NCBI GenBank assembly: GCA_965207075.1
Contig: CBDBLO010000002.1
Coordinates: 1,920,001 to 1,984,000, forward strand
DNA from: Nitrosopumilus sp.
Lineage (GTDB): Archaea > Thermoproteota > Nitrososphaeria > Nitrososphaerales > Nitrosopumilaceae
Direction of reading: 5' to 3'
DNA: 64,000 bases
The notes beneath the pieces are model-generated. The model was not told the origin of the DNA. It did no database searches and worked only from the letters and a program-made list of their open reading frames with translations. This document shows positions 3,385 to 30,053 of the stretch, piece after piece. How positions within the stretch are numbered: position 1 is the stretch's first letter; each line of letters begins with the position of its first letter. Position numbers and translations under genes: made by a program.

Positions 3385-3546
3385 ATTCGCATTTACTCAT
3401 AGACTAACAAAACGAACCAACTCGCACACACAATCCTGAAGATCACGGGGGCCGCCTGGCGGCGGCCCCCTCCCACCTCTTGTCAGGCCTGACGGCCTGA
3501 CCACCCACAAAAAACATGGCCGGCCAACAGAGTCGGCGGCTTTCAT
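3385..3546. other. Conserved non-coding element with two hairpins (copy A)
   Basis: Reverse complement of ~20685-20844. Stems GGGGGCCGCC/GGCGGCCCCC (3447-3470) and GTCAGGCC/GGCCTGAC (3482-3501). Confidence 0.75.
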
Positions 3547-9386: not shown

Positions 9387-9988
9387 GATACAATCACTTT
9401 GTTCGATTTCTTCATTATCAGAATGTCGGTTTTGGTTCTTTTTACGTTTTTCTTAAATCTGGCTTATATACCGTATCTGAGAATCATGTCACTTCGGATT
9501 CTATACACAACATGTACATGCTGTACCTGTTCGTATTGTCAGACATGCTAAAGGTACCAAATGGCATCTTACCGAGAAGGAACCTCTACACGTAAGCTCT
9601 GATATATGATGTCAATCAGTACAATGACCACAACGTCTTTCCAGCGAGAGCCATCGGTTTGAACAAGTAGTTTACAAACAAGATCTATGAAAGCAGTTTC
9701 TGAAATCAAAAAATTGGTAATAGATAGAAATACTCCTCACACTAGAGCAAAAGCACTTTAGTTGTTGTCTCTGCTGCCACCGGATGGCTTGCCGGGTTTC
9801 TTGCTAGGCCAGCCGCCGCCCCCACCTTTTTTAGCTTGTATCATATCATTACATCAACGTGCTTCTTATTATGTTGTGCCTATCCCGTATCTGAAGGTGC
9901 CACAAAATCCTTTTGAACAAGCATGTGATACAACCGAACATGTTGCAAAGTCATTGTGCAAAACAAGAACCACGGGAGTAACAACACT

Positions 9989-11686: not shown

Positions 11687-11689
11687 GTC

Positions 11690-14489: not shown

Positions 14490-14647
14490 GTAGTTACAGC
14501 TTAATGCTCCTGTTGTATACCTTGCAGAAATATCCCTTCAACACAGTGAACTCAAGTATTACCCCGGAATTACGGATCGAAGCATTAATTAATAGTACTA
14601 CCGTACTATAACTAAGAGCTTAAAATTAGTACCGTATTGGGACGGTT

Positions 14648-14792
14648 CCCTTTAGACCCGCAATCATCCTTTGCGAGTCGATTTCAGCTCGAATTTTGCC
14701 CTCCGGATTCGTGCCTGTCAACATGCAGATTCGGGGCAAAGTGAGATTTAACCCTGCTGGTTGAGTTCGAGTTACTTCCAACTCAAACTCTC
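14648..14792. repeat. ~145-bp integrase-5'/att-like repeat, copy 1
   Basis: Aligns with 31765-31908 (CCCTTTAGACCCGC core; CAGATTCGGGGCAAAGTGAGATTTAACC; TGCTGGTTGAGTTCGAGTTACTT). Confidence 0.85.
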
Positions 14793-15023
14793 CAAAGCAC
14801 AGATTACCAGCGATACGAGCACCAAGCGTACGGAGCCACAATGCAGAACTCAGGGCCGTCGTAGGACCCGCAATCATAACAGGTAACCGTTTGACCCCCC
14901 ACCCACCCACTCCCCGAATCTAGATACAAGTTATGCCATACGTATCCGGATACAAGCAGAGCGATAAACGGTTACACCACATTCAACAGAGTATTTTTAA
15001 CAGTAGTGCAGATCTCGTGATCA

Positions 15024-18563: not shown

Positions 18564-18564
18564 T

Positions 18565-18673
18565 TTTGACTCGAACTTTAGCGTCCAAACTCGTGCCTGC
18601 CAACATGCAGGTTCAAGAGCAAATGGAGTTTAATCCTGCTGGTTGGGATCGAGATACTTCCGATTCGAACTCT
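18565..18673. repeat. Integrase-5'/att-like repeat, copy 2 (diverged, lacks core)
   Basis: TCGTGCCTGCCAACATGCAGGTTC...TTTAATCCTGCTGGTTG...TACTTCCGATTCGAACTCT matches copies 1 and 3. Confidence 0.7.
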
Positions 18674-18707
18674 GCAAGAAGTGGATTGAGACGTCAGATA
18701 CGCTAGC

Positions 18708-19805
18708 TATAGTGACGATCAAAAGTTTTTGCTGGGCAGAGACGTTCTATTGATGAATTTCATTGCATCGAGTTTGGGGCGCGCCGTCCTAAAATACTCT
18801 GACAAGGCACGGCGCATATGCACCACCGTCGAGTAATATTCGCTGACCAGCAGATCACGCTTTGACTGGTGCCAGTACTCCTCGACCACGCTGAGTTCCG
18901 GCGTCGCCTTGGGAAGCCATATGATCCTCGCGTTTGGCTCCCCCTCCAGGTATTCCCGTACGATTCTGGCCTTGTGCTGCGGCGCATTGTCCATGATTAC
19001 CGCGGTCCTGCCAAAGTGGCCGACCAGCGCCTTCAGGTACTTCAGGAACGTCTCCTTGTCGAATCCCTTGTACGTCCTGACAAACTGCCTGCCGTCCGTC
19101 GTGAGCGCGCCGTACGCCACTACCCTGTCGTGGCTTCCATTGTATGCGGTTATGACGGGGACGCCCCTCGGCGACCAGTATTTCACGCCGCTTCCCGGGT
19201 CGTTGATGAATATGGACTCGTCAACGACCGCGGTGACAAATCCCCGCGATTTCAGGTACGCGATCCGCCTTTTTGTGTCCCGCTGCCACTCCCTGATCTC
19301 CTCCATCTCCGCCCGGTTGACGTGCACCGCCTGGGACGTCTTGGCCGACATGCCGAGCCTGTGCATTATCTTCCTGACGTTTGTTATGTGGTACTCCACC
19401 CCGTGCCTTTCGCGTATGGCATTCTTGAGCACCCTTGGCGTCGTGATGCCGCCTCCTCCCGCAACGATCTTCCTGATCCTCTTCATCGCCACCTTTGGAG
19501 GCCTGCCCGAACGGGGCCTGTCCTTCAGGCCTGCAAGGCCGTCCTTGTCAAAGCGCCGAACCCAGCTGGAGACGGTGCGCGCGTCGCAGTAGCACAGCGA
19601 GGCGACCTCGGATGCCTTCAATCCGTTGATCTTGACCATGCAGACTGCGTGGATCCTATTTCCTATGAGGTGGTCTTTTTCTGCCTTGTAGGCCCGAATG
19701 AGCAGGTCCCTGTCTTTCTCATCCATGCCGGGCGATGTGTTCGGTGATCAAAAAAGGTTGCGCACACAGTTCTGACAGCCGCGAAGACTTTTGCGTCACA
19801 CTATA
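18708..19805 (-). mobile_element. IS630-family insertion sequence
   Basis: Imperfect terminal IRs CTATAGTGACGATCAAAAG / CTTTTGCGTCACACTATAG with TA ends, enclosing an intact transposase. Confidence 0.85.
18719..19726 (-). CDS. IS630-family DDE transposase
   Basis: HTH plus RPRSGRPPK; VVDES, IMDNAPQH and PELSVVEEYW. Confidence 0.92.
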   Translation of the reverse strand: MDEKDRDLLIRAYKAEKDHLIGNRIHAVCMVKINGLKASEVASLCYCDARTVSSWVRRFDKDGLAGLKDRPRSGRPPKVAMKRIRKIVAGGGGITTPRVLKNAIRERHGVEYHITNVRKIMHRLGMSAKTSQAVHVNRAEMEEIREWQRDTKRRIAYLKSRGFVTAVVDESIFINDPGSGVKYWSPRGVPVITAYNGSHDRVVAYGALTTDGRQFVRTYKGFDKETFLKYLKALVGHFGRTAVIMDNAPQHKARIVREYLEGEPNARIIWLPKATPELSVVEEYWHQSKRDLLVSEYYSTVVHMRRALSEYFRTARPKLDAMKFINRTSLPSKNF

Positions 19806-20265
19806 GACTACGACAGGATGAGGCTTGTGGGTGCCATGTTCATCACCCCGCCGTAAAATAGCAGGTCAAGTGACGGCCTTGACAGTCATACGTAACGTGT
19901 TGACGTCATCTCCCACACGCCGACACCTGAGACCCGTCCATGTCTCATGAGCAATGAAAAAGCTGGCGCGAAGAGCCCCAAGAACAGTTTCCATGTCCAG
20001 CGAACAATCGGCAATCCAGCCGTCCCGGGGCGAGGAAGCACAGGGCCAGGAACCGACAGATGACCGGTTCACACCAAAGAGATGCTTCGGATCATCCATA
20101 AAGCGTGAACTAAGAGAAGAAAGGATGGTGCCCGAGCGTATTCTCGATTTGCCCTTCTGAAGGGTACCGCGACTATGATGGGAAATTAGCCCGTCAAAGC
20201 ACTGCTGGGTTCTCTTCGCTTGGCGGGGGTGCTCTCCTGTGGGAAGGGCGTATTCGTGTACTCGC

Positions 20266-20289
20266 GGTTCAAATCCTACCCTCGGCGCC
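20266..20289 (+). other. tRNA 3'-end fragment (probable att direct repeat)
   Basis: GGTTCAAATCCTACCCTCGGCGCC reads as T-loop, 3' T-stem, acceptor strand and G discriminator; no tRNA 5' half upstream. Confidence 0.7.
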
Positions 20290-20684
20290 GCGTTCCACCA
20301 CCGGCTCTGATATTTTCCGAACCAGATCTGTCGTCACTCGATACATGACAGCCAAACCTCCTTGCCGATCCCATCATGACCCGGCCGGCCGTACGGTCTG
20401 GATCCTTGGGAGCGCACGGGTTGGCTCCGGACGAGACCCAAGGGAGCGCGGGTCGCTAGACTGAACACGCCGGATCGGACAATGCCCGCGTGAATGTCGT
20501 TGTTGCGCCCGTGAGTGGCCGGGGGGAGTGGGGAGAACGGGAGGCCGAAAAATCAGAGCCTCGTAGTTTTTCGCGCATGATCATGTGGATGTTGCCTATG
20601 CTGCCGGTTCCGATACCGTGGCCCCCAAAGGTCTTTCTGGATGCCGTCGCCAAGGCCAAGGCTCGTCGCGGAGGCCGATGCGGG

Positions 20685-20844
20685 ATGAAGCCTGTTGACC
20701 CCGTTGGCTTGGTGTGGTTTTTCGCGGGCAGTCGGGACGATAGCCCCGACTGTATGGTGGGAGGGGGCCGCCGCTAGGCGGCCCCCGTGATCTTCTGGGT
20801 TGTGTGTGAGTTGGTTCGTTTTGTTAGTCTATGAGCAAATGCGA
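20685..20844. other. Conserved non-coding element with two hairpins (copy B)
   Basis: GGGGGCCGCC-GCTA-GGCGGCCCCC (20763-20786) and CAGTCGGG/CCCGACTG (20729-20752); inverted match to 3385-3546. Confidence 0.75.
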
Positions 20845-20903
20845 GTCCGGTTGACAGCATAGATGGACATGAAGTGTCGATCTAGGATAACCAAAGTGAA
20901 TAA

Positions 20904-21038
20904 TATGCATATGCCATATGCATATCATGCATTATAGACATGCATGTTATGCATGCCCGAAGACCTTGAAAGTGCATATCATGCATGCCACAGATGCATA
21001 TCATGCACGTAAGATTGGCGGGACATGCATATCATGCA
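20904..21038. repeat. Phased TGCA-N5-TGCA array (copy B)
   Basis: TGCATATCATGCA at 20919, 20973, 20995 and 21026; TGCATGTTATGCA at 20941. Confidence 0.88.
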
Positions 21039-21048
21039 CTTTTTTCTT

Positions 21049-21061
21049 GCCTTTTATGCAT
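21049..21061 (+). promoter_or_regulatory. GCCTTTTATGCAT promoter motif of AbrB copy B
   Basis: 17 nt upstream of ATG 21079. Confidence 0.65.
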
Positions 21062-21078
21062 ACGCGGGCCCATACTGC

Positions 21079-21426
21079 ATGGAACTGGAGGACATGCAGA
21101 GAAAGGTGCAGTTCCGGCAGGGCTCCTATATGGTGACCATCCCGCTCCAGATAGTCCACGCGCTTGGGATACGCAGGAACCAATACGTCCGGTTTGCCGT
21201 ATCAAAGAACAAGGTCATCATAAAGCCCGTCGAGGCGAGCATCACTAAGAAAGACGTGACGGAGGCAGACAGGGATTCTGCCGCGCTTGACAAGTACGAC
21301 GGGCCTCGGGCGGCGGATAACGAGGATGCCGGCTACATGGACGCTCTTGAAGAAGCCCTGTCTAAAAACAGGCCAGATGGCAACGGCGGCGCCAGCAGCC
21401 GCATGGAAAAGCTCAGGATGAGATGA
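21079..21426 (+). CDS. AbrB/MazE/SpoVT-fold DNA-binding protein (copy B)
   Basis: Paralogue of 2814..3152; same 14-bp convergent overlap with the ATPase. Confidence 0.85.
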   Translation: MELEDMQRKVQFRQGSYMVTIPLQIVHALGIRRNQYVRFAVSKNKVIIKPVEASITKKDVTEADRDSAALDKYDGPRAADNEDAGYMDALEEALSKNRPDGNGGASSRMEKLRMR

Positions 21427-24400
21427 CTATCACAAAGACTCTCTTTTTTTGCTCCTCGTCTAGCCGGGCCCTGATGTCCTTTATCCGGGGGCTCTTGGAC
21501 CAGACGTGGCACTCGGCAAAGCCCATCTTGGCCCACTTTGTCATGTTGTACCTGACGTGCTCCGGGTGGCTCTGGACCTCGCTTACGGACTCGATCTCCA
21601 CCGATATCGGGGCCTCCTTGTCGTAATCGTACGCGACCAGGTCGGTCCGGTCGGTGCCCTTTTTGATGCGCTGCGACGCCATGGCCACGAACAGGCCCTG
21701 CTTGAGGTACGCCGCAACCGCCTTTTGCGCCACCTCCTCAACGTCTGATGCCGTGCCCACCTCCGTGTGGTCAAACTCAAAGTATGCCTTCACCGCTTTT
21801 TTTGACAGGATATATGGCGACGTGCGCACCGTGCCTGCGCGCTCGACCAGTCCCCTGCCTTCCATGTCCCGGAGGGCGGAGGCCACCTCGTCGCGGTTCT
21901 GTACCTGCAGATGGTCTGCAAGCTGTCCCTGCTGCATGTCCTCGTTTTTTAGTAGGCGCATGATTCCCCACTCCAGCCTGGAGGGCAGCTCAACTGTTAT
22001 GCTCTCAAGCCACCTGCTCTTCTCGCGGGCCGCCTGCGCCATGGCGTTTGGGCCCACGACACCGGCGCCGTACTTGGCCAGCTGCGCCTTGACATACCTG
22101 TCGTATTCCGCGTCCGTGACTATCATGTCTGGGGGCCTGGCAAGCCAGAACTGGACGGGCGGGGGCTGCTCCTGCCCCGGTGGCGCTTTCTCGCGCATGG
22201 TCCAGTGGAAGTACTCCTGGCTTGAGAGCTGCTGCTGCAGCGCCTTTTGGAACTGTGGATCCCAGATCTGCGCGATGCGGGAGGCATCCTTGCCGTTGAC
22301 CCTGCCCACCATCTGCGTGCCCGAGTTGCCCGTGATGAGCCCCAGCTGCTTGTCGCTGATCTGCTCGGTGGTCTGGTGTGACAGCACGAGCCCCAGCCCC
22401 AGAGACCTTGCCTGCTCGAGCATCAGCTGCAGCACCTGCAGATCCTTTACAATCTGGAACTCGTCGAGCGCGAGCACCACCTGCGTGCGCTCCGACTCGT
22501 CGGGCGTGCGGTTGGCGCGCTCCTGTATGGTGAACCACAGCTTCAGTATGAACGCCTGCATCGCCAGCGGCTGCACGTGGTGGGGAAGGTTCAGCGGCGA
22601 TATCCTGACAACGGTCTGGCGCCCCGGCTTGATCAGCTCGGCAAAATCCACCGTGCCCTGTCTTACCGAGAACATGCGCCGGAGTACGGGATCGGTTGCA
22701 AACTGCTCTATGCGGTTGAGCAGCGGCATGAACGCGTCGCCCTTGAGGGTGGCGATGCTGTCGAGCGCCTGCCTCATCTCGGGCTCTGGGGTGCCGTACG
22801 CCTGTATGATCTCGGGCATGGCCTGCTGCCCGCTGTCCTGGAGCCTGAGTATGATGTGGTGTATGTCAAGGAACGTGGGCGCGTCGTGCCTTACGTATAT
22901 GTAAAACAAGAGGGCGCGGAAGATGCGCTCCATCTGCACGTAGCTTGCAGACTGCTGGTACCACTCCTCTATCGTCTTCATGAAGTATCCGACGTGCCTG
23001 GACACGACCTCCTCGCGCTCCCACGGCGAGTGCGCGGGCAGCTCCAGCGGGTTTATCGAAAACTTGGTCTGCTGCGGGTCCAGAAAGTGGACGCGCCCCC
23101 CGGACACGGAGCCGGCGCCGCACTGCCTGACGAACTTGTGGGAGTCGTCCCCCTTCGGATCCACGTATATGAACGCGTTGCACGCGGTCCCGTTCTCATT
23201 CCACGCCTCCAGGTGCTTTGCGATGACCCTGATCAGCGAGGTCTTGCCGGAGCCGGACGCGCCGACCGCATACACGTGGGTGGCGAAGTCCGCGGGCGAT
23301 ATCACCGCGGCGTCCGCGTCCTTGGAGGGAACCGCGGCGCCCCATGTCTCGCTCCAGTCAAATCCTGCCGGCTTGGGCCTGAAGAACCCCAGCGGCGCGC
23401 CCGCCTTTGCAGACGATTTCGAGGGGATTGTAACGCCTCTCGTGGCCTCTAGGTTCGGGATGTCCACCGGATCCGGCAGGTGCACGAGCAGCGGGATCTC
23501 CGGCAGGTTCAGTATGAGGAACGGCAGCGGCGGGCGGTCGCGGTACCCACCCAGCAGCCCCTTGTCAAAGTACCGTTTTAGCGCGGCGCCCAGCAATTTG
23601 TCGGGGTCCGGCAGCAGCCTGCGCCCGAACACGTCCATGCGCGGGCACCGCTCCTCGCTGTCAGTTATGCGGACCTCCACCCTCCTTGGCTTTTTCTCGT
23701 CCCAGAAATCCCGGTTCCTGTATGGAAACTTGGTCAGGTGCTCGTGCCCCGAGAACACGTTCTCCACCGGGAGGGACTCGATCTCGTCAAAGTTGAGGTT
23801 GATCTCGCGGTCTCCCCTTATGATGCCCCGGACGCTCATTATTACCTGGGCGGACTGCGTCTTGAGCGTGGCGTGCTTTTGGAGACCCGCGTAGTTGTTG
23901 GCAAAGTCGTACCCCAGCTCCGGGTGGTCGTGCGGCTTTTTGTCCGAAAGCGTGATGAGCTCGGCCGTGCTGAGGTAGTTGCCCCGCTTGATCTCAAGCG
24001 ATCTGGCGTCGAGGCGGCCCACGTGCCCGCGCAGAAAGGAGTCAAAGGAGTGGCGCCTGAACACGAACTGTATCCAGGCGCTCCTGGACAGCTGGGTCAG
24101 CCTTGCCACCCTGCTCATGAGGTGGTGCGCCCTGGCCCTGTCAAAGACGGTCGAGTAGTGCCCGTGGCGCGTGCCCACGTCGAATATCTGGCAGTCCGGC
24201 CCCGGCGGCCCGAACCAGTCCGGCTCGGTCTTCCCCATTGCGGAGAATGACGCGTTCGGGTACATGTTCAAGAACGCCTGCTTGTAGGCGTCCAGGTCGC
24301 CCTCCTCCGCCACCAGGACGAACTCCATCCTCTTCTCCACAGCATCCCACCACACCTCAAAGCTGCGGGTGCGGGTGCCGGCAAGGTCGCCTGCGGCCAG

Positions 24401-24547
24401 CACGGCCTTTTTTGCGTCCATCTCGATCGGTATCATGACCGAGCAGGCGGCCAGCCTGCCGGTCCCGGCCGCAAGGAAGTGTTTCGTGCGGTCCAGCTGC
24501 CCCTCGGGCTTTTTGCGGTTGGCCAGGCGCCAGCGTCTTGATCCCAT
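21413..24547 (-). CDS. HerA/TraD/VirB4-like ATPase with C-terminal wHTH and PD-(D/E)XK-like domain (copy B, full length)
   Basis: 1044 aa; GASGSGKT, DPKGD, LDEFQ, QARS, SHQ; RTDLVAYD...SVEIES. Confidence 0.88.
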   Translation of the reverse strand: MGSRRWRLANRKKPEGQLDRTKHFLAAGTGRLAACSVMIPIEMDAKKAVLAAGDLAGTRTRSFEVWWDAVEKRMEFVLVAEEGDLDAYKQAFLNMYPNASFSAMGKTEPDWFGPPGPDCQIFDVGTRHGHYSTVFDRARAHHLMSRVARLTQLSRSAWIQFVFRRHSFDSFLRGHVGRLDARSLEIKRGNYLSTAELITLSDKKPHDHPELGYDFANNYAGLQKHATLKTQSAQVIMSVRGIIRGDREINLNFDEIESLPVENVFSGHEHLTKFPYRNRDFWDEKKPRRVEVRITDSEERCPRMDVFGRRLLPDPDKLLGAALKRYFDKGLLGGYRDRPPLPFLILNLPEIPLLVHLPDPVDIPNLEATRGVTIPSKSSAKAGAPLGFFRPKPAGFDWSETWGAAVPSKDADAAVISPADFATHVYAVGASGSGKTSLIRVIAKHLEAWNENGTACNAFIYVDPKGDDSHKFVRQCGAGSVSGGRVHFLDPQQTKFSINPLELPAHSPWEREEVVSRHVGYFMKTIEEWYQQSASYVQMERIFRALLFYIYVRHDAPTFLDIHHIILRLQDSGQQAMPEIIQAYGTPEPEMRQALDSIATLKGDAFMPLLNRIEQFATDPVLRRMFSVRQGTVDFAELIKPGRQTVVRISPLNLPHHVQPLAMQAFILKLWFTIQERANRTPDESERTQVVLALDEFQIVKDLQVLQLMLEQARSLGLGLVLSHQTTEQISDKQLGLITGNSGTQMVGRVNGKDASRIAQIWDPQFQKALQQQLSSQEYFHWTMREKAPPGQEQPPPVQFWLARPPDMIVTDAEYDRYVKAQLAKYGAGVVGPNAMAQAAREKSRWLESITVELPSRLEWGIMRLLKNEDMQQGQLADHLQVQNRDEVASALRDMEGRGLVERAGTVRTSPYILSKKAVKAYFEFDHTEVGTASDVEEVAQKAVAAYLKQGLFVAMASQRIKKGTDRTDLVAYDYDKEAPISVEIESVSEVQSHPEHVRYNMTKWAKMGFAECHVWSKSPRIKDIRARLDEEQKKRVFVIVISS

Positions 24548-24584
24548 CAGCCGGTCACCTGTCCGTATTTCAGATGCATCGCAG

Positions 24585-25421
24585 TCACTCCACCAGCAGC
24601 TTGTAGAGGCCCGCTGCGTTGCTCATGACCGGGTCGGCCGGCACGCTGATCTTGAACCTCTTTTTGAGCCTCGACTCCAGCTCGTCGCGCACCCCCGGGA
24701 TGAGCAGCCCGCCGCCTGAAAGCACGACATCGTACGCGTGGCCGTACCCGGAGGACATGTCCGCTATCTCGTCTGCCAGGTTGCCTGCAAGCACCCTTGC
24801 GTATTTTTTGCACGTCTCCCTGCGCCGGTGCAGCAAGTCCTTGTCCAGATGCGCAAACTTGCCTATCTTGCGAGTTATGAATTCCGAGGCCCACCGGGAG
24901 CTCTCCCCGTCGATCACCTGGTTGTCCTCTATAACCACGATCTCGCTGGTTCCCTGCCCTATGGAGACCACCATGCCGGTGCTCCGGTCCATCTCGACCA
25001 GCGTCCCCACGGCCTGGGCCACCACGTCACACCGGTCCGCCGGGACGCACCTTTTGACCGTCTTGGATATGGCCTCGCGGCAGTCTGAGGCCTCGTACGG
25101 CAGGCCCACGGCCATCCTGGCCTTTTCATTGCAGTCCGCGGCGCGGCCTGCCGCGACGCGGATCCGGGACACTGCCTCCCGGATCAGCATCTCCACCTGC
25201 TTCTGGTACCTGGGATCGGGCCTCCCGCGTACGATGGGCCGCACGGTGGCCGCCCCTGCAGTATGCAGCATCTTGGTTGCCCTCTCGCCTATGGCCTCGG
25301 AATCCGCGTCGGCCCAGTCCCCGTGCGTCCTCTTGACGTACAGCGACGGGAACACAACGGAGCCGTGGTCTGAGACGCACTTTACAAAGCCGGTCCCGAT
25401 GTCAAGCCCTATCCTTAGCAC
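24585..25421 (-). CDS. ParM/StbA-like actin-fold ATPase
   Basis: Phosphate-1 IGLDIGTGFVK, connect-1 VVAQAVG, phosphate-2 SIGQGTSE, adenosine SGGG and connect-2 PVMSNAAG. GTG start at 25421 inferred from promoter spacing. Confidence 0.85.
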   Translation of the reverse strand: MLRIGLDIGTGFVKCVSDHGSVVFPSLYVKRTHGDWADADSEAIGERATKMLHTAGAATVRPIVRGRPDPRYQKQVEMLIREAVSRIRVAAGRAADCNEKARMAVGLPYEASDCREAISKTVKRCVPADRCDVVAQAVGTLVEMDRSTGMVVSIGQGTSEIVVIEDNQVIDGESSRWASEFITRKIGKFAHLDKDLLHRRRETCKKYARVLAGNLADEIADMSSGYGHAYDVVLSGGGLLIPGVRDELESRLKKRFKISVPADPVMSNAAGLYKLLVE

Positions 25422-25438
25422 GCCGTCAGACACGCGGG

Positions 25439-25451
25439 ATGCATAAAAGGC
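25439..25451 (-). promoter_or_regulatory. GCCTTTTATGCAT promoter motif of the actin-ATPase operon
   Basis: 17 nt upstream of GTG 25421, the same spacing as in both AbrB promoters. Confidence 0.65.
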
Positions 25452-25684
25452 GGATTTTTCGCAGAATGGCAACCGCCTGAGAAGCCGCGCAGAACACAAG
25501 ACGCTTCCAGCGCACACAGTTGCTTGGGCGGTACGGCATGCCAGGGTCCGTCAGACCAACTGCCAGCCAGTGATGCTCCAAGAGAACCACTCGCAACCGG
25601 GCCAAGCGAGGCCAGCTCTGGATAGTTGCTACAGGCGCCTGTCAAGACGCCGGATATACAACGATCCAAGCGTGCACGCACGAC

Positions 25685-25976
25685 GCACAAGAGAGGTCAG
25701 GACCGCAGAATTCCACATGCATAGCCATCCCTCGAGCATAGCCACGCCGGGCGTCTACTACAGTTACCCGCAAACTGTCATAAAGATCTATGACAGTTTG
25801 CGGGTAACCGCCACCGCGTGCGCTAGTCATGCCGCCGCGAAAGAGATCAAGACTGCCGAATGCCCCGCGCATGGTCATCTCGCGAGCATAGCCACGCCAG
25901 ACGTCGACTATACTTACCCGCAAACTTTCATAGAGCTCTATGAAAGTTTGCGGGTAACCGCCACCGCGTGCGCCAG
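25685..25976. repeat. Two 150-bp tandem repeats, each with a long palindrome
   Basis: 25763-25808 has 20-bp perfect arms around AAGATC; 25914-25957 is a perfect 44-bp palindrome. Confidence 0.92.
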
Positions 25977-26168
25977 CCAACCACCACACTGGCGTCCTTG
26001 CCGCATGCCGGTATAAGCACGCATGGAGGCATGCGCCAAACGTAGCCCATATCGTAACATGCCGGATTTCTGAGGCCCGTCCGCAACCCTTGCCCAAGAG
26101 GAGGTTGTTCGTGTCAGTAGTACCAAAGACCAAGCATGCAGTCGTACGCGCCGTTTGGCGCCGGTAAG

Positions 26169-26208
26169 TGTGAGATGGTAACAAAGATTTCTTTGTTACC
26201 ATCTCACA
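26169..26208. repeat. 18-bp perfect inverted repeat
   Basis: TGTGAGATGGTAACAAAG-ATTT-CTTTGTTACCATCTCACA. Confidence 0.9.
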
Positions 26209-26566
26209 GTTATGGGGACGTAGGTGCGGGACTCGGGGCGATCCGTTCCGTCCAAGGCTGGGGCCCTGCCATTCCATGCCATGACGTCCTGCCATGACGT
26301 GTGGTCATACGGGACTGGTAACTTAGCGGGAGCTGGCTTCTCGTGGAAAGCGTTGGGAGCTGGCAAGGTACCGCTACAAGTTCGTGAGCTACACACAGCA
26401 GGCACAGCAGGCACAGGCACTACAGACAGGGGAAAAGGACGAGAAAGTGGGCTCCCGCTTTCATCAGAGTCAAATCCGTGGATTCGCAACGGAACACGAA
26501 TTGAGCTATATATACTCTTTCATTTAGCACTTAACTTAAATTGTTATTTCGATTAATTAATTTAGA

Positions 26567-26821
26567 ATGGGAACAACCCGTATTAAGATTGGATCACTGG
26601 TGCTCTCGTCTGCAGAATTGGAGGCGCTTAGGACATTCCGAGACTACAAGCGCTTGCGCGACAATGCGGGCTGGCACGCCGAGAAAGTTACTTCATTGAA
26701 AGGTTTATTGGACAAGGATACTCCACTACAGAAGAAGAAGAATGTCCGAATCAGAGGGAGACAATCCCAACCAAGGCGACGCCATGCCCGACATAGTTAC
26801 TACCATACAAGCACACATTGA
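26567..26821 (+). CDS. Small hypothetical protein
   Basis: ATG follows an AT-rich promoter-like tract; overlaps the next ORF. Confidence 0.35.
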   Translation: MGTTRIKIGSLVLSSAELEALRTFRDYKRLRDNAGWHAEKVTSLKGLLDKDTPLQKKKNVRIRGRQSQPRRRHARHSYYHTSTH

Positions 26822-27668
26822 CAACATTCAAGCGACGCGCAACTCAAAGGTGTTGGTGCTGTTTTCATTTAGTCCTCTTGACGAATCAGTAGCCTTGTCC
26901 TTAAACAACGTATTGAGGAGAATGGGAAATATGGAAAAATTAGACGTCGTTCTGGAGTCTATGGGCGGAGACCTTGATTCTGCCTACAAGATGCTTCTAT
27001 TGCTCAAGTCATACGCCAAGACTGTCACAGTAATCGTTCCATTCTATGCCAAGAGTGCCGCCGCATTGATTGCATTGGGCGCTGATCAACTGCAACTGTG
27101 TCGGGCGGGTGAATTGGGACCGCTTGATCCTCAAATATTAGATACTACCTCCGATCAAATGGTTCCATCTTTTTCGATCAAGAAGATGGTTGACTTCATC
27201 ATAGATGTTGGCAACCCACTTGTACAAGTAAGTTTGGTTGACAAGCTCTCTCCCCTCCTGATTGGGGCCTACAGAGTTTCTGAAGAAACTTCAAAACAGT
27301 ATCTTCGTGAAATTTTTATGTCTAAGGAACTCAATAATGAAAAGATAGATGCACTAATCCCCGTATTTACCGAAAAACTGCTATCACATGGATACCCTAT
27401 AACTGAAAAATTTTTAGAGATGCATGGTGTACCCATAGTCAAGTTAGACGAATCAGAAGAGGCCGCATTTGCTGACATACACGCTAATCTAATCACATAC
27501 TACCGGAATGCGATGAAGAGTCGCAAGGATATGCACCTAGTACTACTAACGAATGACATGGTGTCTATAGACATAGACGGTACCAACATAACGTTTCCTT
27601 CGTATGATGTACCGCTGATCATGCAGGACAGTTCTTCCACGCAACAAGAACAAGCGCCCGAATCATAA
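26742..27668 (+). CDS. ClpP/crotonase-fold serine protease (SDH/SppA-like)
   Basis: LESMGGD, PFYAKSAAALIALGAD, GELGPLDPQ and SHGYPI. Confidence 0.8.
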   Translation: MSESEGDNPNQGDAMPDIVTTIQAHIDNIQATRNSKVLVLFSFSPLDESVALSLNNVLRRMGNMEKLDVVLESMGGDLDSAYKMLLLLKSYAKTVTVIVPFYAKSAAALIALGADQLQLCRAGELGPLDPQILDTTSDQMVPSFSIKKMVDFIIDVGNPLVQVSLVDKLSPLLIGAYRVSEETSKQYLREIFMSKELNNEKIDALIPVFTEKLLSHGYPITEKFLEMHGVPIVKLDESEEAAFADIHANLITYYRNAMKSRKDMHLVLLTNDMVSIDIDGTNITFPSYDVPLIMQDSSSTQQEQAPES

Positions 27669-28040
27669 GTACACATCAATACTAGGCTAACAAATGCCCG
27701 ATTCTTGTGAATCCGGTTGCTAGACACATACTACCTACTCAAGGAGGACGTAGAGTCACTTCATCTTGACGGACAGGATAAATCGGAGTCTGGTCGTGTC
27801 AGTCAAGTTAAGTACTATGTTCTGCCTTGTCGCAGGCAGCTCGCATATGCAGAGCCATATTCCGTATACGCGTGCCCTTCAGAGAAGCCGCGCACGAGAC
27901 GTCAAGCATAGTCTGTGCGGTGGTTGGGGTGGAGGATCATGTTGGGATTGATCATGTCCGCGGCTTAGTCTCCCGCGATTACAGGAGCCCGCTCTTTGGG
28001 AAGGACGAAGGGTTGTACCACAGGCGCGCTCGCAGCCACG

Positions 28041-28493
28041 TCACGAATATTTCCGTATAATGTCGGATATGTGCATGTGGCATTTTTCATGTATGAGCGC
28101 ACGGCCCTTTCCGTAGATCTCCACCTTAGTTACGGAAAGCATTATCCGAGTCTCGTCACTAATGGATTTGGTTAAGACGATCGGAAGCACGCTTGGCCTG
28201 AGTCCCCCCAGGCAGTCTGTGCACATCTGTTCTGCGAATTTTGCGCCTGCGTTCAGTTGTTTTTGCACCTGCGTCGGGTCGACGTGTCCACTCTTAAGCT
28301 CACAGACACCCACCACGAGTTTCCCGTAGTCTGCAAACACAATGCAGTCGCACATGCTCTCTTGCTCACCAGAGCGATGTTCTTCTGCTTTTATGGCGAC
28401 GCAATGCGATCTGTCTGTCTTCAGCCCGCAATTCTGTTCCTTGCAAGATGCCTGCCACCCCCCATACTTTTCGCGTACCTGCTCAAGCGACAT
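28041..28493 (-). CDS. Putative PD-(D/E)XK-fold nuclease partner of the AAA ATPase
   Basis: CDCIVF...CELKSG...QKQL; directly downstream of the ATPase. Confidence 0.6.
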   Translation of the reverse strand: MSLEQVREKYGGWQASCKEQNCGLKTDRSHCVAIKAEEHRSGEQESMCDCIVFADYGKLVVGVCELKSGHVDPTQVQKQLNAGAKFAEQMCTDCLGGLRPSVLPIVLTKSISDETRIMLSVTKVEIYGKGRALIHEKCHMHISDIIRKYS

Positions 28494-28505
28494 TTCCGCG
28501 TCCCC

Positions 28506-29993
28506 TTACGATGCGTTCTGTTCTATGATTATACGCCTGCGGTGCATCTTTTCAATCACTTTTACGAACTCGTCCAGGGATATTCCGTTGTCGACGGAGA
28601 ATTTTGTGGGCTTTGCGATGCTGCCGCCCTTGTCTGAGACTGCAAAGGTGTAGGGGGCCACCTCGTCCTCCAGCAGGTAGTCGTCCCTGTCAAAGCCGAG
28701 TTTCTTGCTTGTGGCCGCGTTGTCCTTGCCGCTCATTAAGAATTGGCTCAGTAGGCTCTGTACGAAAAAACTGTGCGTCGTGATCAGCACGTTGAGTCCT
28801 TTCCGTATCATCTTTACTATGTGGCGGGCCAGAATCATCTGCGCCTCCGGGTGCAGGTGCGCCTCCGGTTCCTCGAGTATGACAAGGTCGCCCTCGCGGA
28901 CCACGTGCTTGAGGTACAGAACCAGGATTGCAAGCTCGGACACCGTGGAAGACGTCCGGTGCAACGATATCGCGCTGTCGTTGTGATCATACGTTATCGT
29001 AGGGAACCGGGTTCGGGCGTCTGCAGTGTGGCCGATCCTTCCGTCCAGTATGGTCTCTTCGAGGCTGCTTGCAATGTCGCTGAACGGGCCCGTGGAAGAT
29101 GGCATTTCAATGATTGACGATATAAAGTCAGATGCGGCCCCGGGCAGTGTGGGAATTGCCATTCCTTCCACTCCTGCGTACGTCGCATTGGTGACGATGC
29201 CCGAGGTAATCGCCCGGTGTCCTTGTAAAATGCCCGATCTTGCAGCGGGAAGATAGTACGAGGCTGACGGCAGCTCGTAATCCACGTACTTTGATATGGA
29301 AAGTCCGAGGCGATAAACCACTTCTAGTGCTTGCTCCTCCGGGGATTCGGTGGGATCAACCCTGATCATCGAGAGTTTGTCCGAGTTATCGTCCATGGAA
29401 ATAGTCCGCCTGCGCCCTGCGCCTTTGAACGTTATTCTTCGCTTTAACTGGATCTTGGGGCAGTTTACGGTTGCGCTCTTCTTGCTGTGTATGCGAATCT
29501 CAACTCCGTTACTGGCGGCGATCTTCACGGAGAACGATCTTTTTCCCGTTCTGACCAGTTTGTCGCTGGCGTCACCGAAATTGCGCTCAATTTCGAGTTT
29601 TAGATCTTTGGCGTCCATCTCAAAATGCCCCCGTACCATTTCCTCGATTGTGTCTCCCGGTATCTCCGTGTCTTTTCCGGCATTGATCAGGCTGGACATC
29701 TTGGCCATCATGCGCTCTACGTCGTATTGCACGCTATAGCGCCTCGCATAAGAGAAGAGGGGCATATTGCTCTTTCCAGGCGAGGCACATGTCGACACGA
29801 TGGAGTGCAGGAGTAACGCCGCATAGGATTTGCCCGAGTTGTTTGGGCCACAAAATATGGTAAGCGGTTTGAGGGAGATTGACGCTTTTGCTATGGGGCC
29901 AAAGTCGCGTATGTCCACGGTCAGGTTCAGACGCGAGGATTTCTGCCCCGTTTTACCGGACAATGCATTTGCCATACGTTGGCGCCGTGCCAT
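28506..29993 (-). CDS. ABC/AAA_15-21-type ATPase (defence-associated)
   Basis: DFGPI, GPNNSGKS, LPAARSG, SSTVSEL, LEEPEAHLHP and TTHS. Confidence 0.85.
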   Translation of the reverse strand: MARRQRMANALSGKTGQKSSRLNLTVDIRDFGPIAKASISLKPLTIFCGPNNSGKSYAALLLHSIVSTCASPGKSNMPLFSYARRYSVQYDVERMMAKMSSLINAGKDTEIPGDTIEEMVRGHFEMDAKDLKLEIERNFGDASDKLVRTGKRSFSVKIAASNGVEIRIHSKKSATVNCPKIQLKRRITFKGAGRRRTISMDDNSDKLSMIRVDPTESPEEQALEVVYRLGLSISKYVDYELPSASYYLPAARSGILQGHRAITSGIVTNATYAGVEGMAIPTLPGAASDFISSIIEMPSSTGPFSDIASSLEETILDGRIGHTADARTRFPTITYDHNDSAISLHRTSSTVSELAILVLYLKHVVREGDLVILEEPEAHLHPEAQMILARHIVKMIRKGLNVLITTHSFFVQSLLSQFLMSGKDNAATSKKLGFDRDDYLLEDEVAPYTFAVSDKGGSIAKPTKFSVDNGISLDEFVKVIEKMHRRRIIIEQNAS

Positions 29994-30053
29994 GGCGCGT
30001 ATGGATGCTGCTGTTATTTATCTTAGCGTGCGAGGCGGGACGATCCCACACCA

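What the first reader, a model, noticed from the sequence alone, without database searches (positions are those of the whole stretch)
25685..25976. Tandem 150-bp repeats carrying 44-46-bp palindromes with compensatory changes, upstream of the actin gene
Seen: GTTACCCGCAAACTGTCATA-AAGATC-TATGACAGTTTGCGGGTAAC and TTACCCGCAAACTTTCATAGAG|CTCTATGAAAGTTTGCGGGTAA, the latter a perfect 44-mer. The G to T change in the left arm is matched by C to A in the right arm, so symmetry is maintained while the rest of the repeat has drifted. Known: long perfect palindromes are rare and mark cruciform origins, hairpin-telomere resolution sites or recombinase sites. Inference: a functional cis site for replication, resolution or linearisation of the element. 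The 150-bp period also keeps a frame open (25570..26016), so coding cannot be excluded.
Basis: partly seen in the sequence, partly recalled or inferred. Interest (0 to 1): 0.8.

Follow-up and report, generated by a model that had tools for sequence, protein, structure and literature searches.

The report
Conserved palindromic sites in archaeal mobile elements
The two long palindromes are real, non-coding and strongly conserved: they belong to a family of protein-binding-type DNA sites in the control region of integrated conjugative-type elements of ammonia-oxidising archaea, next to genes for an actin-like filament protein and a DNA-pumping ATPase, and are not hairpin-telomere sites.

Summary
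Observation confirmed. Two 150-bp repeats (25692-25829, 25842-25979; 83% alike) each carry a 44-46-bp palindrome, here called F1. A third, unrelated palindrome (F2, 26165-26212) follows.

F1 is a family. There are 14 copies in this 2.2-Mb Nitrosopumilaceae genome, all in mobile-element regions. A further 14 lie in three other genomes and one on a metagenome contig. None was found in 40 relatives.

The palindromes are far better conserved than their flanks (88% vs 53%). Dyad symmetry is kept through two-sided changes. No coding signal was found.

The "actin" is a ParM/MreB-like protein. Downstream lie a VirD4/FtsK-like ATPase with a MarR-type winged helix and a nuclease-like end domain, then an AbrB-fold protein. 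A complex model docks the AbrB tail onto the actin.

The window copy lies in a 17-kb element integrated at a tRNA-Lys att site by a tyrosine integrase. Another genus keeps the same gene order and ~150-170-bp repeat layout with different palindromes.

Best reading: cis-acting binding sites of an element-encoded protein that organise the control region of the segregation/transfer operon (parC/parS- or oriT-like). The binder is unidentified. Hairpin-telomere, recombination-site, host-type origin and coding readings are poorly supported.

The parts
25692..25829 (.). 150-bp repeat unit, copy 1 (carries palindrome F1a)
   Evidence: the repeat finder family D1, reference copy
25842..25979 (.). 150-bp repeat unit, copy 2 (carries palindrome F1b), 83% identical to copy 1
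   Evidence: The 33 differences over 150 aligned bases fall 12/9/12 over codon positions.
25763..25808 (.). F1a palindrome: GTTACCCGCAAACTGTCATA-AAGATC-TATGACAGTTTGCGGGTAAC (20+6+20)
25914..25957 (.). F1b palindrome, a perfect 44-mer (TTACCCGCAAACTTTCATAGAG | CTCTATGAAAGTTTGCGGGTAA)
26165..26212 (.). F2 palindrome (core GGTAACAAAGA-tt-TCTTTGTTACC). This second family sits in the same arrays elsewhere and takes F1's place in a sister element.
25441..25448 (-). TATA-like box TTTTATGC, 20 bp upstream of the likely GTG start of the actin-like gene. The same arrangement is seen in locus L055.
   Evidence: read; inference
24585..25421 (-). Actin-like (ParM/MreB-type) gene. The likely start is the GTG at 25421, giving about 278 aa; the longest ORF runs to 25517.
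   Evidence: Pfam MreB_Mbl 1.4e-12 and ALP_N 7e-4. Homologues are mostly 273-281 aa, and one source names a relative ParM/StbA. Invariant DxGxG phosphate motif.
21413..24547 (-). 1044-aa VirD4/FtsK-HerA-type P-loop ATPase. Its domains are an ATPase (about 22283-23281), a MarR/ArsR-type winged helix (about 21770-21994) and a restriction-endonuclease-like C-terminal domain (21416-21742).
   Evidence: TrwB_AAD_bind 2.3e-6 and MarR_2 0.002. CD1115-type VirD4 2e-5. Winged helix Z 10-12, rmsd 1.2-2.5 A over 65-75 residues. C-terminal domain pLDDT 91, with best matches PaqCI Z 8.5, AF1548 8.3 and NucS 7.9; this last assignment is tentative.
21079..21426 (+). AbrB/SpoVT-fold protein (115 aa) with a conserved C-terminal tail ...RMEKLRMR. 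It is the candidate ParR-like adaptor.
   Evidence: Homologues are named AbrB/MazE/SpoVT by a source, some with PF04014. Alignment. Complex model with the actin-like protein scored 0.72, best control 0.00.
20890..21045 (.). Iterons ATGCATATCATGCA (5-6 copies) directly upstream of the AbrB-like gene
   Evidence: Read. Every AbrB type has its own iterons.
30054..31856 (-). Tyrosine recombinase (integrase) of the element. The true start probably lies inside the ORF, after the att core.
   Evidence: Invariant R258, K303, R388, H415, Y423. Profile against PDB hits XerA 4a8e at 5.5e-10. 11 of 46 family members match Pfam Phage_integrase.
31765..31784 (+). att core (3' end of tRNA-Lys, CCCTTTAGACCCGC); right end of the element that holds the palindromes
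14647..14661 (+). att core (same 3' end of tRNA-Lys); left end of that element and right end of the neighbouring element, which starts at tRNA-Lys(ttt) 7.7 kb before the window
25570..26016 (+). Open frame over the repeats. It is judged non-coding.
   Evidence: GC by codon position is 0.56/0.53/0.63, against GC3 of 0.82-0.85 in neighbouring genes. Repeat differences are spread evenly over codon positions. No Pfam match.

Best explanation
The two palindromes are copies of a 44-46-bp dyad-symmetric site, here called F1: GTTACCCGCAAAC-NN-TCATA-N6-TATGA-NN-GTTTGCGGGTAAC. Together with a second palindrome type (F2), F1 makes up the long non-coding control region of a family of integrated conjugative-type elements of Nitrosopumilaceae.

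That control region lies between the integrase/cargo end of the element and an operon. The operon encodes a ParM-like actin and a VirD4/FtsK-like ATPase that carries a winged helix and a nuclease-like domain. An AbrB-fold adaptor gene lies convergent to it.

Mechanism I commit to (inferred, not shown):
- Each palindrome is bound sequence-specifically by a dimer, or dimer of dimers, of an element-encoded protein.
- The several sites, 150-440 bp apart, nucleate a higher-order nucleoprotein complex upstream of the operon.
- This complex acts in cis on the element's own DNA. It marks the DNA for the segregation/transfer machinery and probably also sets the operon's expression, as parC/ParR or parS/KorB sites do.

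The binder is not identified. My split within this reading is: transfer/processing locus for the ATPase-winged-helix-nuclease about 0.25, centromere proper about 0.2. A purely transcriptional operator is listed as a rival.

Shown: anatomy, conservation, symmetry, gene context, integration.
Inferred: protein binding, the complex, and its role.
For: 1. Selection on the site.
- In 17 aligned repeat units the palindrome is the only block at 90% conservation or more.
- Mean pairwise identity is 0.878 in the palindrome and 0.53 in the flanks. The palindrome is the higher in 136 of 136 pairs.
- 25 of 44 columns are invariant in 24 copies from 4 genomes and a metagenome contig.

2. Symmetry is kept.
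- 93.4% of cells are paired.
- 7 of 22 pairs show changes on both sides, in 25 cells.
- The covariation score is 0.140 against 0.051 in shuffles; 0 of 500 shuffles reach it.
- Slid controls give 0.016-0.040.

3. Restricted to mobile DNA.
- This genome has 14 copies at 6 loci that share element genes.
- None was found in 24 same-genus and 16 same-order genomes.
- G190 has 7 copies, G191 has 5 and G192 has 2; one metagenome contig has 1.

4. Linked to the operon.
- All 4 actin-like genes of this genome have F1 and/or F2 upstream.
- Locus L055 of another genome has array-actin-ATPase-AbrB in the same order.

5. Same architecture with other sequences.
- In genome G101 the actin is 57-62% identical. 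The order integrase-palindromes-actin-ATPase-AbrB is kept, but with palindromes CTTAACGGGGC-N8-GCCCCGTTAAG and ACAGTCGGGACGC..GCGTCCCGnCTGT.
- These lie in tandem units 171 bp apart (L063) or 148 and 159 bp apart (L064), 0-1 kb upstream of the actin gene.

6. Retained without the genes.
- Elements E2062 and F2133 lack actin and ATPase but keep the arrays next to AbrB.
- Their palindromes are 86-98% alike while their flanks are 48-74% alike.
- This fits a cis site served in trans.

7. F1 and F2 are interchangeable in place.
- Sister elements A (703-762 kb) and G (1722-1792 kb) are syntenic at 77-91% identity.
- They lose homology at both palindrome positions. A has F1 at both positions and G has F2 at both.

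8. The machinery is there.
- The complex model docks the AbrB tail (residues 109-116) onto the actin-like protein.
- The score is 0.72 and the best of 3 controls is 0.00. That mark was reached by 58 of 80 solved complexes and 2 of 110 mismatched pairs.
- The runs agree in at least 45% of contacts; partner pLDDT is at least 42.
- The ATPase has a MarR-type winged helix and a nuclease-like domain.
- Element A carries T2SSF/TadC, T2SSE and VirB4/HerA-like genes. This matches the thaumarchaeal ICEs described in PMC6563490 (passages).
Against: No binder is identified, and each candidate has a problem.

- AbrB. Every AbrB type has its own iterons just upstream of its gene, so those iterons are the more natural centromere. 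The same F1 occurs with AbrB proteins that are only 30% identical.
- The ATPase winged helix. Its recognition helix is identical in element A (F1 only) and element G (F2 only).
- The integrases. F1 sits beside two different integrase families.

Other points against:
- Known parC sites are short direct repeats, not 44-bp palindromes (recalled).
- In the window the sites lie 340-490 bp from the actin start, too far for simple promoter occlusion.
- Two G041 loci with the same operon (actin 60-73% identical) show no palindrome with arms of 13 bp or more, nor convincing repeats.
- The symmetric variants at positions 13-14 are not what independent half-site contacts predict. They could come from hairpin-templated correction instead of selection.
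- The complex model may pass by likeness to the solved ParM-ParR complex (recalled), and the partner's own fold is uncertain.
Confidence: 0.45

Rival explanations
1. Pure transcriptional operator or upstream activating sites. A regulator, element-encoded or host, binds F1/F2 only to switch the promoters of the element's operons. There is no role in DNA segregation or transfer.
For: - All sites are in non-coding promoter-bearing regions.
- In elements A and G the palindrome centre lies about 163-165 bp upstream of the TATA box of homologous promoters.
- In G101 the proximal palindromes lie within about 100 bp of the actin start.
- F1 and F2 swap together at two operon-upstream positions of sister elements, as a regulon would.
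Against: - Elements E2062 and F2133 keep conserved arrays although the downstream operon is gone and the array abuts the 3' end of a convergent gene.
- Up to 5 sites spread over 1.4 kb, and distances of 340-490 bp from the promoter in the window, are unusual for an archaeal operator.
- A 44-bp site is about twice the size of usual dimer operators (recalled).
Confidence: 0.2
2. Target sites of the tyrosine recombinases: multimer resolution, inversion or cargo exchange. In this reading the site is a 19-bp arm, a 6-bp crossover spacer and a 19-bp arm, like an enlarged loxP or dif.
For: - The most variable, often asymmetric part is the central 6 bp: GAGCTC, GAACTT, AAGATC, GATCTC, GAATTC, GTGCAC and others.
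- F1 lies 66 bp after the integrase gene in element A.
- It lies 234-470 bp after a second integrase family at C1914 and L052.
- In G101 a 13-8-13 palindrome lies about 200 bp from the integrase gene.
- Gene order around the arrays is rearranged: the array is inverted relative to the actin gene in the window, McrBC is inserted at C1914, and the operon is lost at E and F.
Against: - Homology breakpoints lie 80-360 bp from the palindromes, not in them.
- Neighbouring sites have different central spacers, which would block exchange between them.
- The integrases already have a different target, the tRNA-Lys core CCCTTTAGACCCGC, which shares only ACCCGC with F1.
- Arms of 19 bp, and several sites in tandem, are atypical (recalled).
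Confidence: 0.08
3. Cruciform or hairpin structure as such is the functional form. This covers the first reader's idea: a replication origin, a single-strand initiation site or a hairpin-telomere resolution site.
For: - The hairpins are very stable: -21.6 to -22.7 kcal/mol, z about -10.
- Symmetry is maintained through two-sided changes at 7 of 22 pairs, with three base-pair types at pair 14-31. Intrastrand pairing explains this more easily than two independent half-sites.
Against: - The sequence, not only the pairing, is conserved: 25 of 44 columns are invariant.
- No replication initiator or protelomerase was found in the 17-kb element.
- The element is integrated through att repeats, not linear.
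- There are several sites per element.
- The host origin repeats (CTGGAGTGGAAATGAAGGGGT beside orc1) are unrelated to F1 and F2.
Confidence: 0.07
4. Selfish or neutral palindromic repeat (REP/MITE-like) that spread within the elements, with no function for them.
For: It is multi-copy, palindromic, intergenic and embedded in longer repeat units.
Against: - There are only 14 copies, all in element DNA, and none elsewhere in 2.2 Mb.
- Positions are conserved between genomes.
- The palindrome is much better conserved than its surroundings in 136 of 136 unit pairs.
- No target-site duplications were noticed in the printed flanks, though no dedicated search was made.
Confidence: 0.05
5. The repeats are part of a protein-coding gene (frame 25570..26016, or 25642..26295 on the other strand).
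For: Both frames are open. The 150-bp period is a multiple of three, and only one frame per strand passes the palindrome without a stop.
Against: - GC3 is 0.63 and 0.56 against 0.82-0.85 in neighbouring genes.
- The 33 differences between the repeats fall 12/9/12 over codon positions.
- There is no Pfam match.
- Translated similarity between loci is limited to the palindromes themselves.
Confidence: 0.01

Closest known systems
parC centromere of type II (ParM/ParR) partition loci of plasmids such as R1 and pSK41, and the srpMRC locus of SXT/R391 ICEs. The first two are recalled. For the last, only the search listing and abstract start of PMC4489591 were seen.
   Same: - A cluster of repeated binding sites lies directly upstream of an actin-like NTPase gene on a mobile element.
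- A small adaptor protein's C-terminal tail is modelled into the actin.
- The element is integrative and conjugative-type.
   Different: - The sites are 44-46-bp palindromes 150-440 bp apart, not 11-20-bp direct repeats.
- The adaptor has an AbrB fold, not ribbon-helix-helix. It is encoded convergently after an ATPase gene and has its own iterons.
- Binding of the adaptor to F1 is untested and doubtful.
parS sites and the KorB operators (OB) of IncP plasmids (recalled)
   Same: - Palindromic sites occur in several copies, some clustered and some tens of kb away in the same element (710224 and 751777 are 41.5 kb apart).
- They lie in promoter regions.
- They could serve both control and partition.
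   Different: - No ParB/KorB homologue was seen.
- The sites are about three times longer.
- The motor is actin-like, not ParA.
clt locus / TraB of Streptomyces plasmids, and oriT of conjugative elements (recalled)
   Same: - A cis site lies beside the gene of an FtsK/VirD4-type DNA-pumping ATPase that carries a winged-helix DNA-recognition domain.
- The site is retained in derivatives that lack the ATPase (E2062, F2133).
   Different: - No relaxase was found.
- There are several long palindromes instead of 8-bp repeats or one nick region.
- The ATPase here also has a nuclease-like domain.
- Its recognition helix does not change between the F1-only and F2-only elements.
loxP/FRT/dif-type core sites of tyrosine recombinases, and the telRL/TelK target of protelomerases (recalled)
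   Same: - The layout is inverted arms around a 6-bp variable centre.
- Recombinase genes are nearby.
- The length is about 44 bp.
   Different: - Arms are 19 bp.
- There are many copies per element.
- Breakpoints do not lie at the sites.
- The element integrates at tRNA-Lys.
- No protelomerase family match was found.
Palindromic centromere bound by AspA in Sulfolobus plasmid pNOB8 (recalled)
   Same: An archaeal mobile element has a palindromic site upstream of its partition cassette.
   Different: pNOB8 uses a ParA/ParB-like cassette with a single 23-bp site. Here the motor is actin-like, the arrays have two palindrome families, and the phylum is different.

Membership tests
Type II partition centromere (parC) | Lies directly upstream of the actin-like NTPase gene | tested here: met
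   In the window F1 lies 343 and 493 bp, and F2 about 750 bp, upstream of the GTG at 25421. All 4 actin-like genes of the genome have F1 or F2 upstream. The same holds in L055 and at G101 loci.
Type II partition centromere (parC) | Array of short direct repeats (iterons) bound cooperatively | tested here: not met
   The sites are 44-46-bp palindromes 150-440 bp apart. True iterons exist elsewhere, upstream of the AbrB gene.
Type II partition centromere (parC) | Bound by the adaptor that also binds the actin-like filament | not testable with these tools
   Only the adaptor-actin half could be modelled: score 0.72, best control 0.00. Indirect evidence is against AbrB as the F1 reader.
Protelomerase (hairpin-telomere) target site | A protelomerase gene in the element | tested here: inconclusive
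   The 600-aa protein has no Pfam match of its own. Its family profile hits XerA-type recombinases, and 11 of 46 members match Phage_integrase. No protelomerase family appeared, but none was searched by name.
Protelomerase (hairpin-telomere) target site | One site per replicon; replicon linear with hairpin ends | tested here: not met
   There are 2 sites in the window and up to 5 in one array. The element is bounded by tRNA-Lys att cores within the chromosome.
Tyrosine-recombinase core site (lox/dif/res-like) | Inverted binding arms around a 6-8-bp spacer | tested here: met
   The layout is 19-6-19 with a variable centre. The G101 analogue is 13-8-13.
Tyrosine-recombinase core site (lox/dif/res-like) | Rearrangement joints fall in the site; partner sites share the spacer | tested here: not met
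   Homology ends 80-360 bp from the palindromes. Adjacent sites differ in the spacer, AAGATC against GAGCTC.
Origin of transfer (oriT) or clt | Beside the gene of the coupling/translocating ATPase | tested here: met
   The arrays lie upstream of the operon holding the VirD4/FtsK-like ATPase in D1945, C1914, A710, G1782, L055 and G101.
Origin of transfer (oriT) or clt | Relaxase and nick site, or recognition by the ATPase's DNA-binding domain | not testable with these tools
   No relaxase appeared among the proteins scanned, but the scan was not exhaustive. The winged helix does not co-vary with the F1/F2 swap.
Archaeal chromosomal-type origin (ORB repeats with Orc1/Cdc6) | ORB-like sequence and an adjacent orc1/cdc6 gene | tested here: not met
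   The genome's single Cdc6_C match is at 199.9 kb. Its repeats, CTGGAGTGGAAATGAAGGGGT, do not resemble F1 or F2.
REP/MITE-like dispersed palindromes | Many copies scattered through host intergenic DNA | tested here: not met
   All 14 copies lie at 6 element loci. The other matches with up to 2 mismatches to a half-site are single half-sites.
Known RNA families (Rfam) | Match to a curated covariance model | tested here: not met
   There was no match at E <= 0.1 in window 20000-32000. Only tRNAs and chance-level hits appeared in four array loci.

The most novel reading that the evidence does not exclude
F1 and F2 are the long-sought origin-of-transfer equivalents of archaeal conjugative elements. 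The VirD4/FtsK-like ATPase would recognise the palindromes through its fused MarR-type winged helix, perhaps through the GTTACC/GGTAAC hexamer that F1 and F2 share. It would cut them with its fused restriction-endonuclease-like domain and pump the DNA out, with no relaxase involved. The actin-like protein, the AbrB adaptor and the iterons would partition the excised circle. Derivatives that keep only the arrays (E2062, F2133) would be mobilised in trans.
Probability: 0.2. Interest if true: 0.85.

Novelty: new variant of a known kind. Interest (0 to 1): 0.6.

Why it matters
No cis-acting site has been defined for the integrative-conjugative elements of ammonia-oxidising archaea, whether centromere, origin of transfer or operator. 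For archaeal conjugation in general, no relaxase or oriT is known (recalled).

The passages I read of the survey of these elements (PMC6563490) mention neither actin-like genes nor palindromes. No paper in the searched library holds the F1 half-site strings.

This finding gives three things:
- a sharply defined, conserved, testable DNA site;
- a conserved module around it: integrase, palindrome array, ParM-like actin, ATPase with winged helix and nuclease-like domain, AbrB-fold adaptor with iterons;
- a natural experiment, because the palindrome sequence changes between lineages while the layout stays.

If the sites prove to be the loading or cutting sites of the ATPase, or a palindromic centromere for an archaeal actin, that would be a new mechanism for a known task. 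If they are only operators, the interest is modest.

Tried and rejected
- Tandem Repeats Finder did not list the 150-bp repeat.
- The actin-like protein found no match in the plasmid collection.
- The F1 pattern found nothing in viral contigs.
- Rfam gave nothing relevant.
- Sequencing runs: no RNA holder was listed. Laid contigs only show that the sequence exists in two studies, and they break at the repeats. They cannot show starts, ends or fold-backs.
- Candidate small genes 'B121' and 'B136' beside the solitary F1 at 751777 were dropped as probably spurious. They are R/G/P-rich and their relatives contain stops.
- No conserved small gene was found downstream of the actin gene in elements A and G.
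- The host-origin mimic idea was rejected.
- Co-variation of the ATPase winged helix with palindrome type was rejected for the A/G pair.
- The resemblance of F1 to the att core is limited to ACCCGC, which I judge to be chance.
- The PADLOC hit of the ATPase to mad8 (7.5e-15) was followed to passages of PMC13662399. It reflects only a shared ATPase class.
- Foldseek on the 285-residue C-terminal model found only the winged helix. The nuclease-like domain needed a separate model, and its Z of 7-8.5 is at the edge of what chance gives.
- Palindromes seen in L030 come from the unpublished genome G117. No claim here rests on them.
- Supplementary annotation tables of PMC6563490 were closed. They might already list these gene families.
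Full report
1. THE OBSERVATION

- A direct repeat of 138 nt lies at 25692-25829 and 25842-25979 (83% identity, spacing 150).
- Each copy carries a long palindrome. One is 25763-25808 (20+6+20, arms fully complementary). The other is 25914-25957, a perfect 44-mer.
- The two palindromes differ at TGT/ACA against TTT/AAA, that is, by a change on both arms.

None of this is expected by chance. The site pattern with up to 3 mismatches is found at 2 places, against 0.00 in 100 shuffles. As single strands the palindromes fold with z of -9.5 to -11.4.

A third palindrome of unrelated sequence lies at 26165-26212. In a whole-window scan for close inverted repeats, these were the only perfectly or near-perfectly matched long palindromes (96-100% complementary; all other pairs listed were 74-88%).

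Contigs of public runs from two studies hold 25386-26195 without a single difference, so the sequence is not an artefact of one assembly.

2. NOT CODING

The open frames over the repeats have GC3 of 0.63 and 0.56, while the neighbouring genes have 0.82-0.85. The 33 differences between the two repeat copies fall 12/9/12 on the three codon positions. Neither frame has a Pfam match.

3. WHERE WE ARE

The window is positions 1920001-1984000 of a 2.19-Mb contig. The genome is a 2.23-Mb, 60% GC prokaryote genome. Homologues of the local proteins carry Nitrosopumilus / Nitrosopumilaceae / Thaumarchaeota names.

The genes around the palindromes are as follows.

- Actin-like gene, 24585-25421, minus strand.
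  - It is a ParM/MreB-like protein: MreB_Mbl 1.4e-12 and ALP_N 7e-4. One source names a relative ParM/StbA.
  - Its likely start is a GTG at 25421, 20 bp after a TATA-like TTTTATGC. This is read, and the same arrangement is seen in L055.

- A 1044-aa ATPase immediately downstream.
  - Its P-loop domain is of VirD4/TrwB/FtsK-HerA type.
  - It has a MarR/ArsR-type winged helix (Z 10-12, rmsd 1.2-2.5 A over 65-75 residues).
  - Its C-terminal 109 residues model at pLDDT 91. The best structural matches are restriction-endonuclease-fold domains: PaqCI Z 8.5, AF1548 8.3, NucS 7.9, also AspBHI, FokI and Hjc. These Z values are borderline, so the nuclease fold is tentative.

- A 115-aa AbrB/SpoVT-fold protein, 21079-21426, convergent with the ATPase.

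- Right of the palindromes: an SDH-type protease gene, a PD-T4-4/AriA-like AAA_15 ATPase and a 600-aa protein.
  - The family of the 600-aa protein has the invariant R, K, R, H, Y set of tyrosine recombinases.
  - Its profile hits XerA structures at 5.5e-10.
  - 11 of 46 family members match Phage_integrase.

4. THE ELEMENT

The 3' end of tRNA-Lys(ttt) lies at genome 1912214-1912288, 7.7 kb before the window. Its core, CCCTTTAGACCCGC, recurs at window 14647-14661 and 31765-31784.

So the palindromes lie in a 17-kb element (window 14647-31784) integrated in tandem behind another element. That other element begins at the tRNA with a second integrase, followed by an array of five F1 palindromes. 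The integrase assignment rests on atlas score 0.99 to integrase clusters and hhalign probability 93% to the first family.

The two elements carry the actin-ATPase-AbrB block as a 4.7-kb inverted repeat of 86% identity. Defence genes lie in and around it: two methyltransferases, a GajA/GajB-like pair and McrBC.

A third copy of the integrase-plus-array arrangement sits at tRNA-Lys(ctt) at 2129 kb, with its att repeat at 2155389.

5. A FAMILY OF SITES

The palindrome, called F1 here, occurs 14 times in the genome. Every copy has the same 44-bp register.

| Genome position | Copies |
|---|---|
| 710224 | 1 |
| 751777 | 1 |
| 1914211-1915572 | 5 |
| The window | 2 |
| 2062599-2062893 | 2 |
| 2133096-2133768 | 3 |

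Elsewhere:
- None was found in 24 genomes of the same genus and 16 of the same order.
- It is present in three other Nitrosopumilaceae genomes: 7, 5 and 2 sites.
- One metagenome contig has it.
- It was not found in the viral collection.

Conservation:
- Across 24 aligned copies, 25 of 44 columns are invariant. Variation is concentrated at the outermost base, at positions 13-14 of each arm and in the central 6 bp.
- Symmetry is kept through change. 7 of 22 pairs have changes on both sides, in 25 cells. Pair 14-31 occurs as A-T, T-A and G-C. The covariation score of 0.140 is reached by 0 of 500 shuffles, and slid controls give 0.016-0.040. The copies are related, so these are not independent events.
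- Hybrid sites with two different half-site variants also exist (3 in this genome), so symmetry is favoured but not obligatory.
- In 17 aligned repeat units the palindrome is the only strongly conserved block. Mean pairwise identity is 0.878 inside it and 0.53 outside it, and the inside value is higher in all 136 pairs.

6. A SECOND FAMILY

The third palindrome of the window, F2, has the core GGT[A/G]ACAAAGA-NN-TCTTTGT[T/C]ACC. It has six full copies in the genome and three half copies.

In the arrays, F1 units are followed by F2.

F1 and F2 can take each other's place. Elements A (703-762 kb) and G (1722-1792 kb) are syntenic at 77-91% identity. They lose homology over about 0.6 kb at two places. 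At both places A has F1 (710224, 751777) and G has F2 (1783938; 1733324 and 1733450).

In A and G the palindrome centre lies about 163-165 bp upstream of the TATA box of the homologous pilin-like/actin operon.

Element A also carries T2SSF/TadC, T2SSE and HerA/VirB4-like ATPase genes. That is the gene set reported for thaumarchaeal integrative-conjugative elements in PMC6563490 (passages).

7. LINK TO THE ACTIN OPERON

All four actin-like genes of the genome have F1 and/or F2 upstream. At 1914-1919 kb, McrBC is inserted between them.

In another genome (L055) the order is F1, F1, F1, F2, actin, ATPase, AbrB.

At 2062 kb and 2133 kb the arrays are followed directly by the AbrB gene. The actin and ATPase genes are missing, and both loci share the same junction (95% identity). 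Even so, their palindromes stay 86-98% alike while their flanks are 48-74% alike. This argues for a site that works in cis, with the proteins supplied in trans, and against a mere operator of the lost operon.

In genome G101 the actin is 57-62% identical. The order integrase-palindromes-actin-ATPase-AbrB is kept with other palindromes. In L063 and L064 these lie in tandem units 171, 148 and 159 bp apart, just upstream of the actin gene. That is the same layout as in the window with a different sequence.

Two loci of G041 with the same operon show no such palindromes. In the first scan, with 1.5-kb flanks, most of the 27 loci had none with arms of 11-13 bp or more. The feature is therefore lineage-restricted.

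8. WHO BINDS?

This could not be settled.

- AbrB-fold protein. It has an N-terminal DNA-binding domain, a variable acidic linker and an invariant tail. A complex model places residues 109-116 of that tail on the actin-like protein.
  - The score was 0.72 and the best of 3 controls was 0.00. That mark was reached by 58 of 80 solved complexes and 2 of 110 mismatched pairs.
  - The runs agree in at least 45% of contacts, and partner pLDDT is at least 42.
  - This supports, but does not show, a ParR-like adaptor. The pass may owe something to the solved ParM-ParR complex (recalled).
  - Every AbrB type has its own iterons directly upstream of its gene: ATGCATATCATGCA x5-6 in the window, and 33-bp units x4.7-7.9 or 55-bp units elsewhere.
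  - The same F1 goes with AbrB proteins only 30% identical.
  - So the iterons, not F1, are the more natural AbrB target and centromere.
  - Against this, AbrB is the one strongly diverged core protein between elements A and G (50%, against 78-92% for its neighbours), which parallels the F1/F2 swap.

- ATPase winged helix. It is a plausible reader of palindromes, but its recognition helix is identical in A and G. F1 and F2 do share the hexamer GTTACC/GGTAAC in opposite arrangements. This is seen in the sequences, and its meaning is unknown.

- Integrases. Two families lie next to F1: 66 bp away in A, and 234-470 bp away at C1914 and L052. They share a different target, the tRNA-Lys core.

9. 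WHAT IT IS NOT

- Not a hairpin-telomere site. The element is integrated, has several sites, and has no protelomerase match.
- Not a host-type origin. The repeats beside the only orc1/cdc6 gene are unrelated.
- Not a known RNA.
- Not a dispersed selfish repeat. It is absent from the rest of the chromosome.
- Probably not a recombination core. Homology breakpoints lie 80-360 bp away, and adjacent sites differ in the centre.

10. VERDICT

I read F1 and F2 as binding sites of an element-encoded protein that build a nucleoprotein complex in the control region of the segregation/transfer operon (confidence 0.45). Within that reading, a transfer-processing role and a centromere role are about equally likely. 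The rivals are:
- a purely transcriptional operator (0.2);
- recombinase sites (0.08);
- structure-based origin or telomere functions (0.07);
- a selfish repeat (0.05);
- coding (0.01).

The site family and the module around it were not found in print. Passages of PMC6563490 hold no 'actin', 'ParM', 'MreB', 'AbrB' or 'centromere'. The F1 half-site strings have 0 occurrences in the library. The ParM/Thaumarchaeota search gave no relevant paper. Supplements were closed.

Comparisons with parC, KorB/parS, clt/TraB, loxP, TelK and AspA rest on my own knowledge, not on calls.

Noticed in passing
window 20890-21045 (also L050 3572-3837, L046 9506-9746, L048 14933-15087, L055, L058, L061, L062): Every AbrB-like gene has its own iteron array just upstream. 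The window has ATGCATATCATGCA x5-6. Elsewhere there are 33-bp units x4.7-7.9, 55-bp units x2.3, or ATGCGGATCATGCATG-type repeats. The sequence differs with the AbrB type. This is the best candidate for the real centromere or auto-operator of the actin system.
   Followed up: partly
window 21079-21426 (+) with 24585-25421 (-): A complex model places the invariant C-terminal tail of the AbrB-fold protein on the actin-like protein (score 0.72, best control 0.00). This would be an AbrB-fold analogue of ParR in an archaeon.
   Followed up: partly
window 21413-24547 (-): The VirD4/FtsK-like ATPase carries a MarR-type winged helix and a highly conserved C-terminal domain with a restriction-endonuclease-like fold. 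That domain has invariant D..D, ExE, H and K residues. In elements A and G the protein is split into two genes.
   Followed up: partly
window 20729-20753; L055 (about 5090-5120, upstream of AbrB); G101 loci L061, L062: A short palindrome CAGTCGGG-N9-CCCGACTG lies upstream of the AbrB iterons in the window and in L055. It has the same core as the ACAGTCGGGA palindromes that lie upstream of the actin gene in genus g30.
   Followed up: no
window 1-3515 and 20717-25460: A 4.7-kb inverted repeat (86% identical) holds actin-like, ATPase and AbrB genes. It belongs to two tandemly integrated elements. Between and around the copies lies a low-GC defence island: a HATPase protein, two DNA methyltransferases and a GajA/GajB-like pair at 3688-13588.
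   Followed up: partly
window 14647-14661 and 31765-31784; genome 1912214-1912288, 2129094-2129168, 2155389: There are tandem integrations at tRNA-Lys genes by two different tyrosine-integrase families that use the same att core. The 145 bp to the right of the two window cores are 86% alike. The flank after 2155389 repeats the flank of a third tRNA-Lys(ctt) at 8292.
   Followed up: partly
window 17507-18556: There are three perfect 351-bp tandem copies (100% identity) inside the gene of a 1179-aa protein that has Ig-like, transthyretin-like and cupredoxin domains (15024-18563).
   Followed up: no
window 18719-19726 and 33193-34470: Two DDE transposase genes (DDE_3 with HTH domains; DDE_Tnp_4). 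The first lies inside the element that holds the palindromes.
   Followed up: no
L058 and L059 (G041), upstream of the AbrB-like genes: Perfect 19-bp tandem repeats (GGCCTTGGTGACCTGTACG), 12.2 and 14.7 copies, lie a few hundred bp upstream of the AbrB gene in both G041 loci.
   Followed up: no
genome C2 712728-713011 (outside the window): Perfect 60-bp tandem repeats lie inside a 375-aa gene with a weak nicking-endonuclease match. ARAGORN miscalls them as four odd tRNAs.
   Followed up: no
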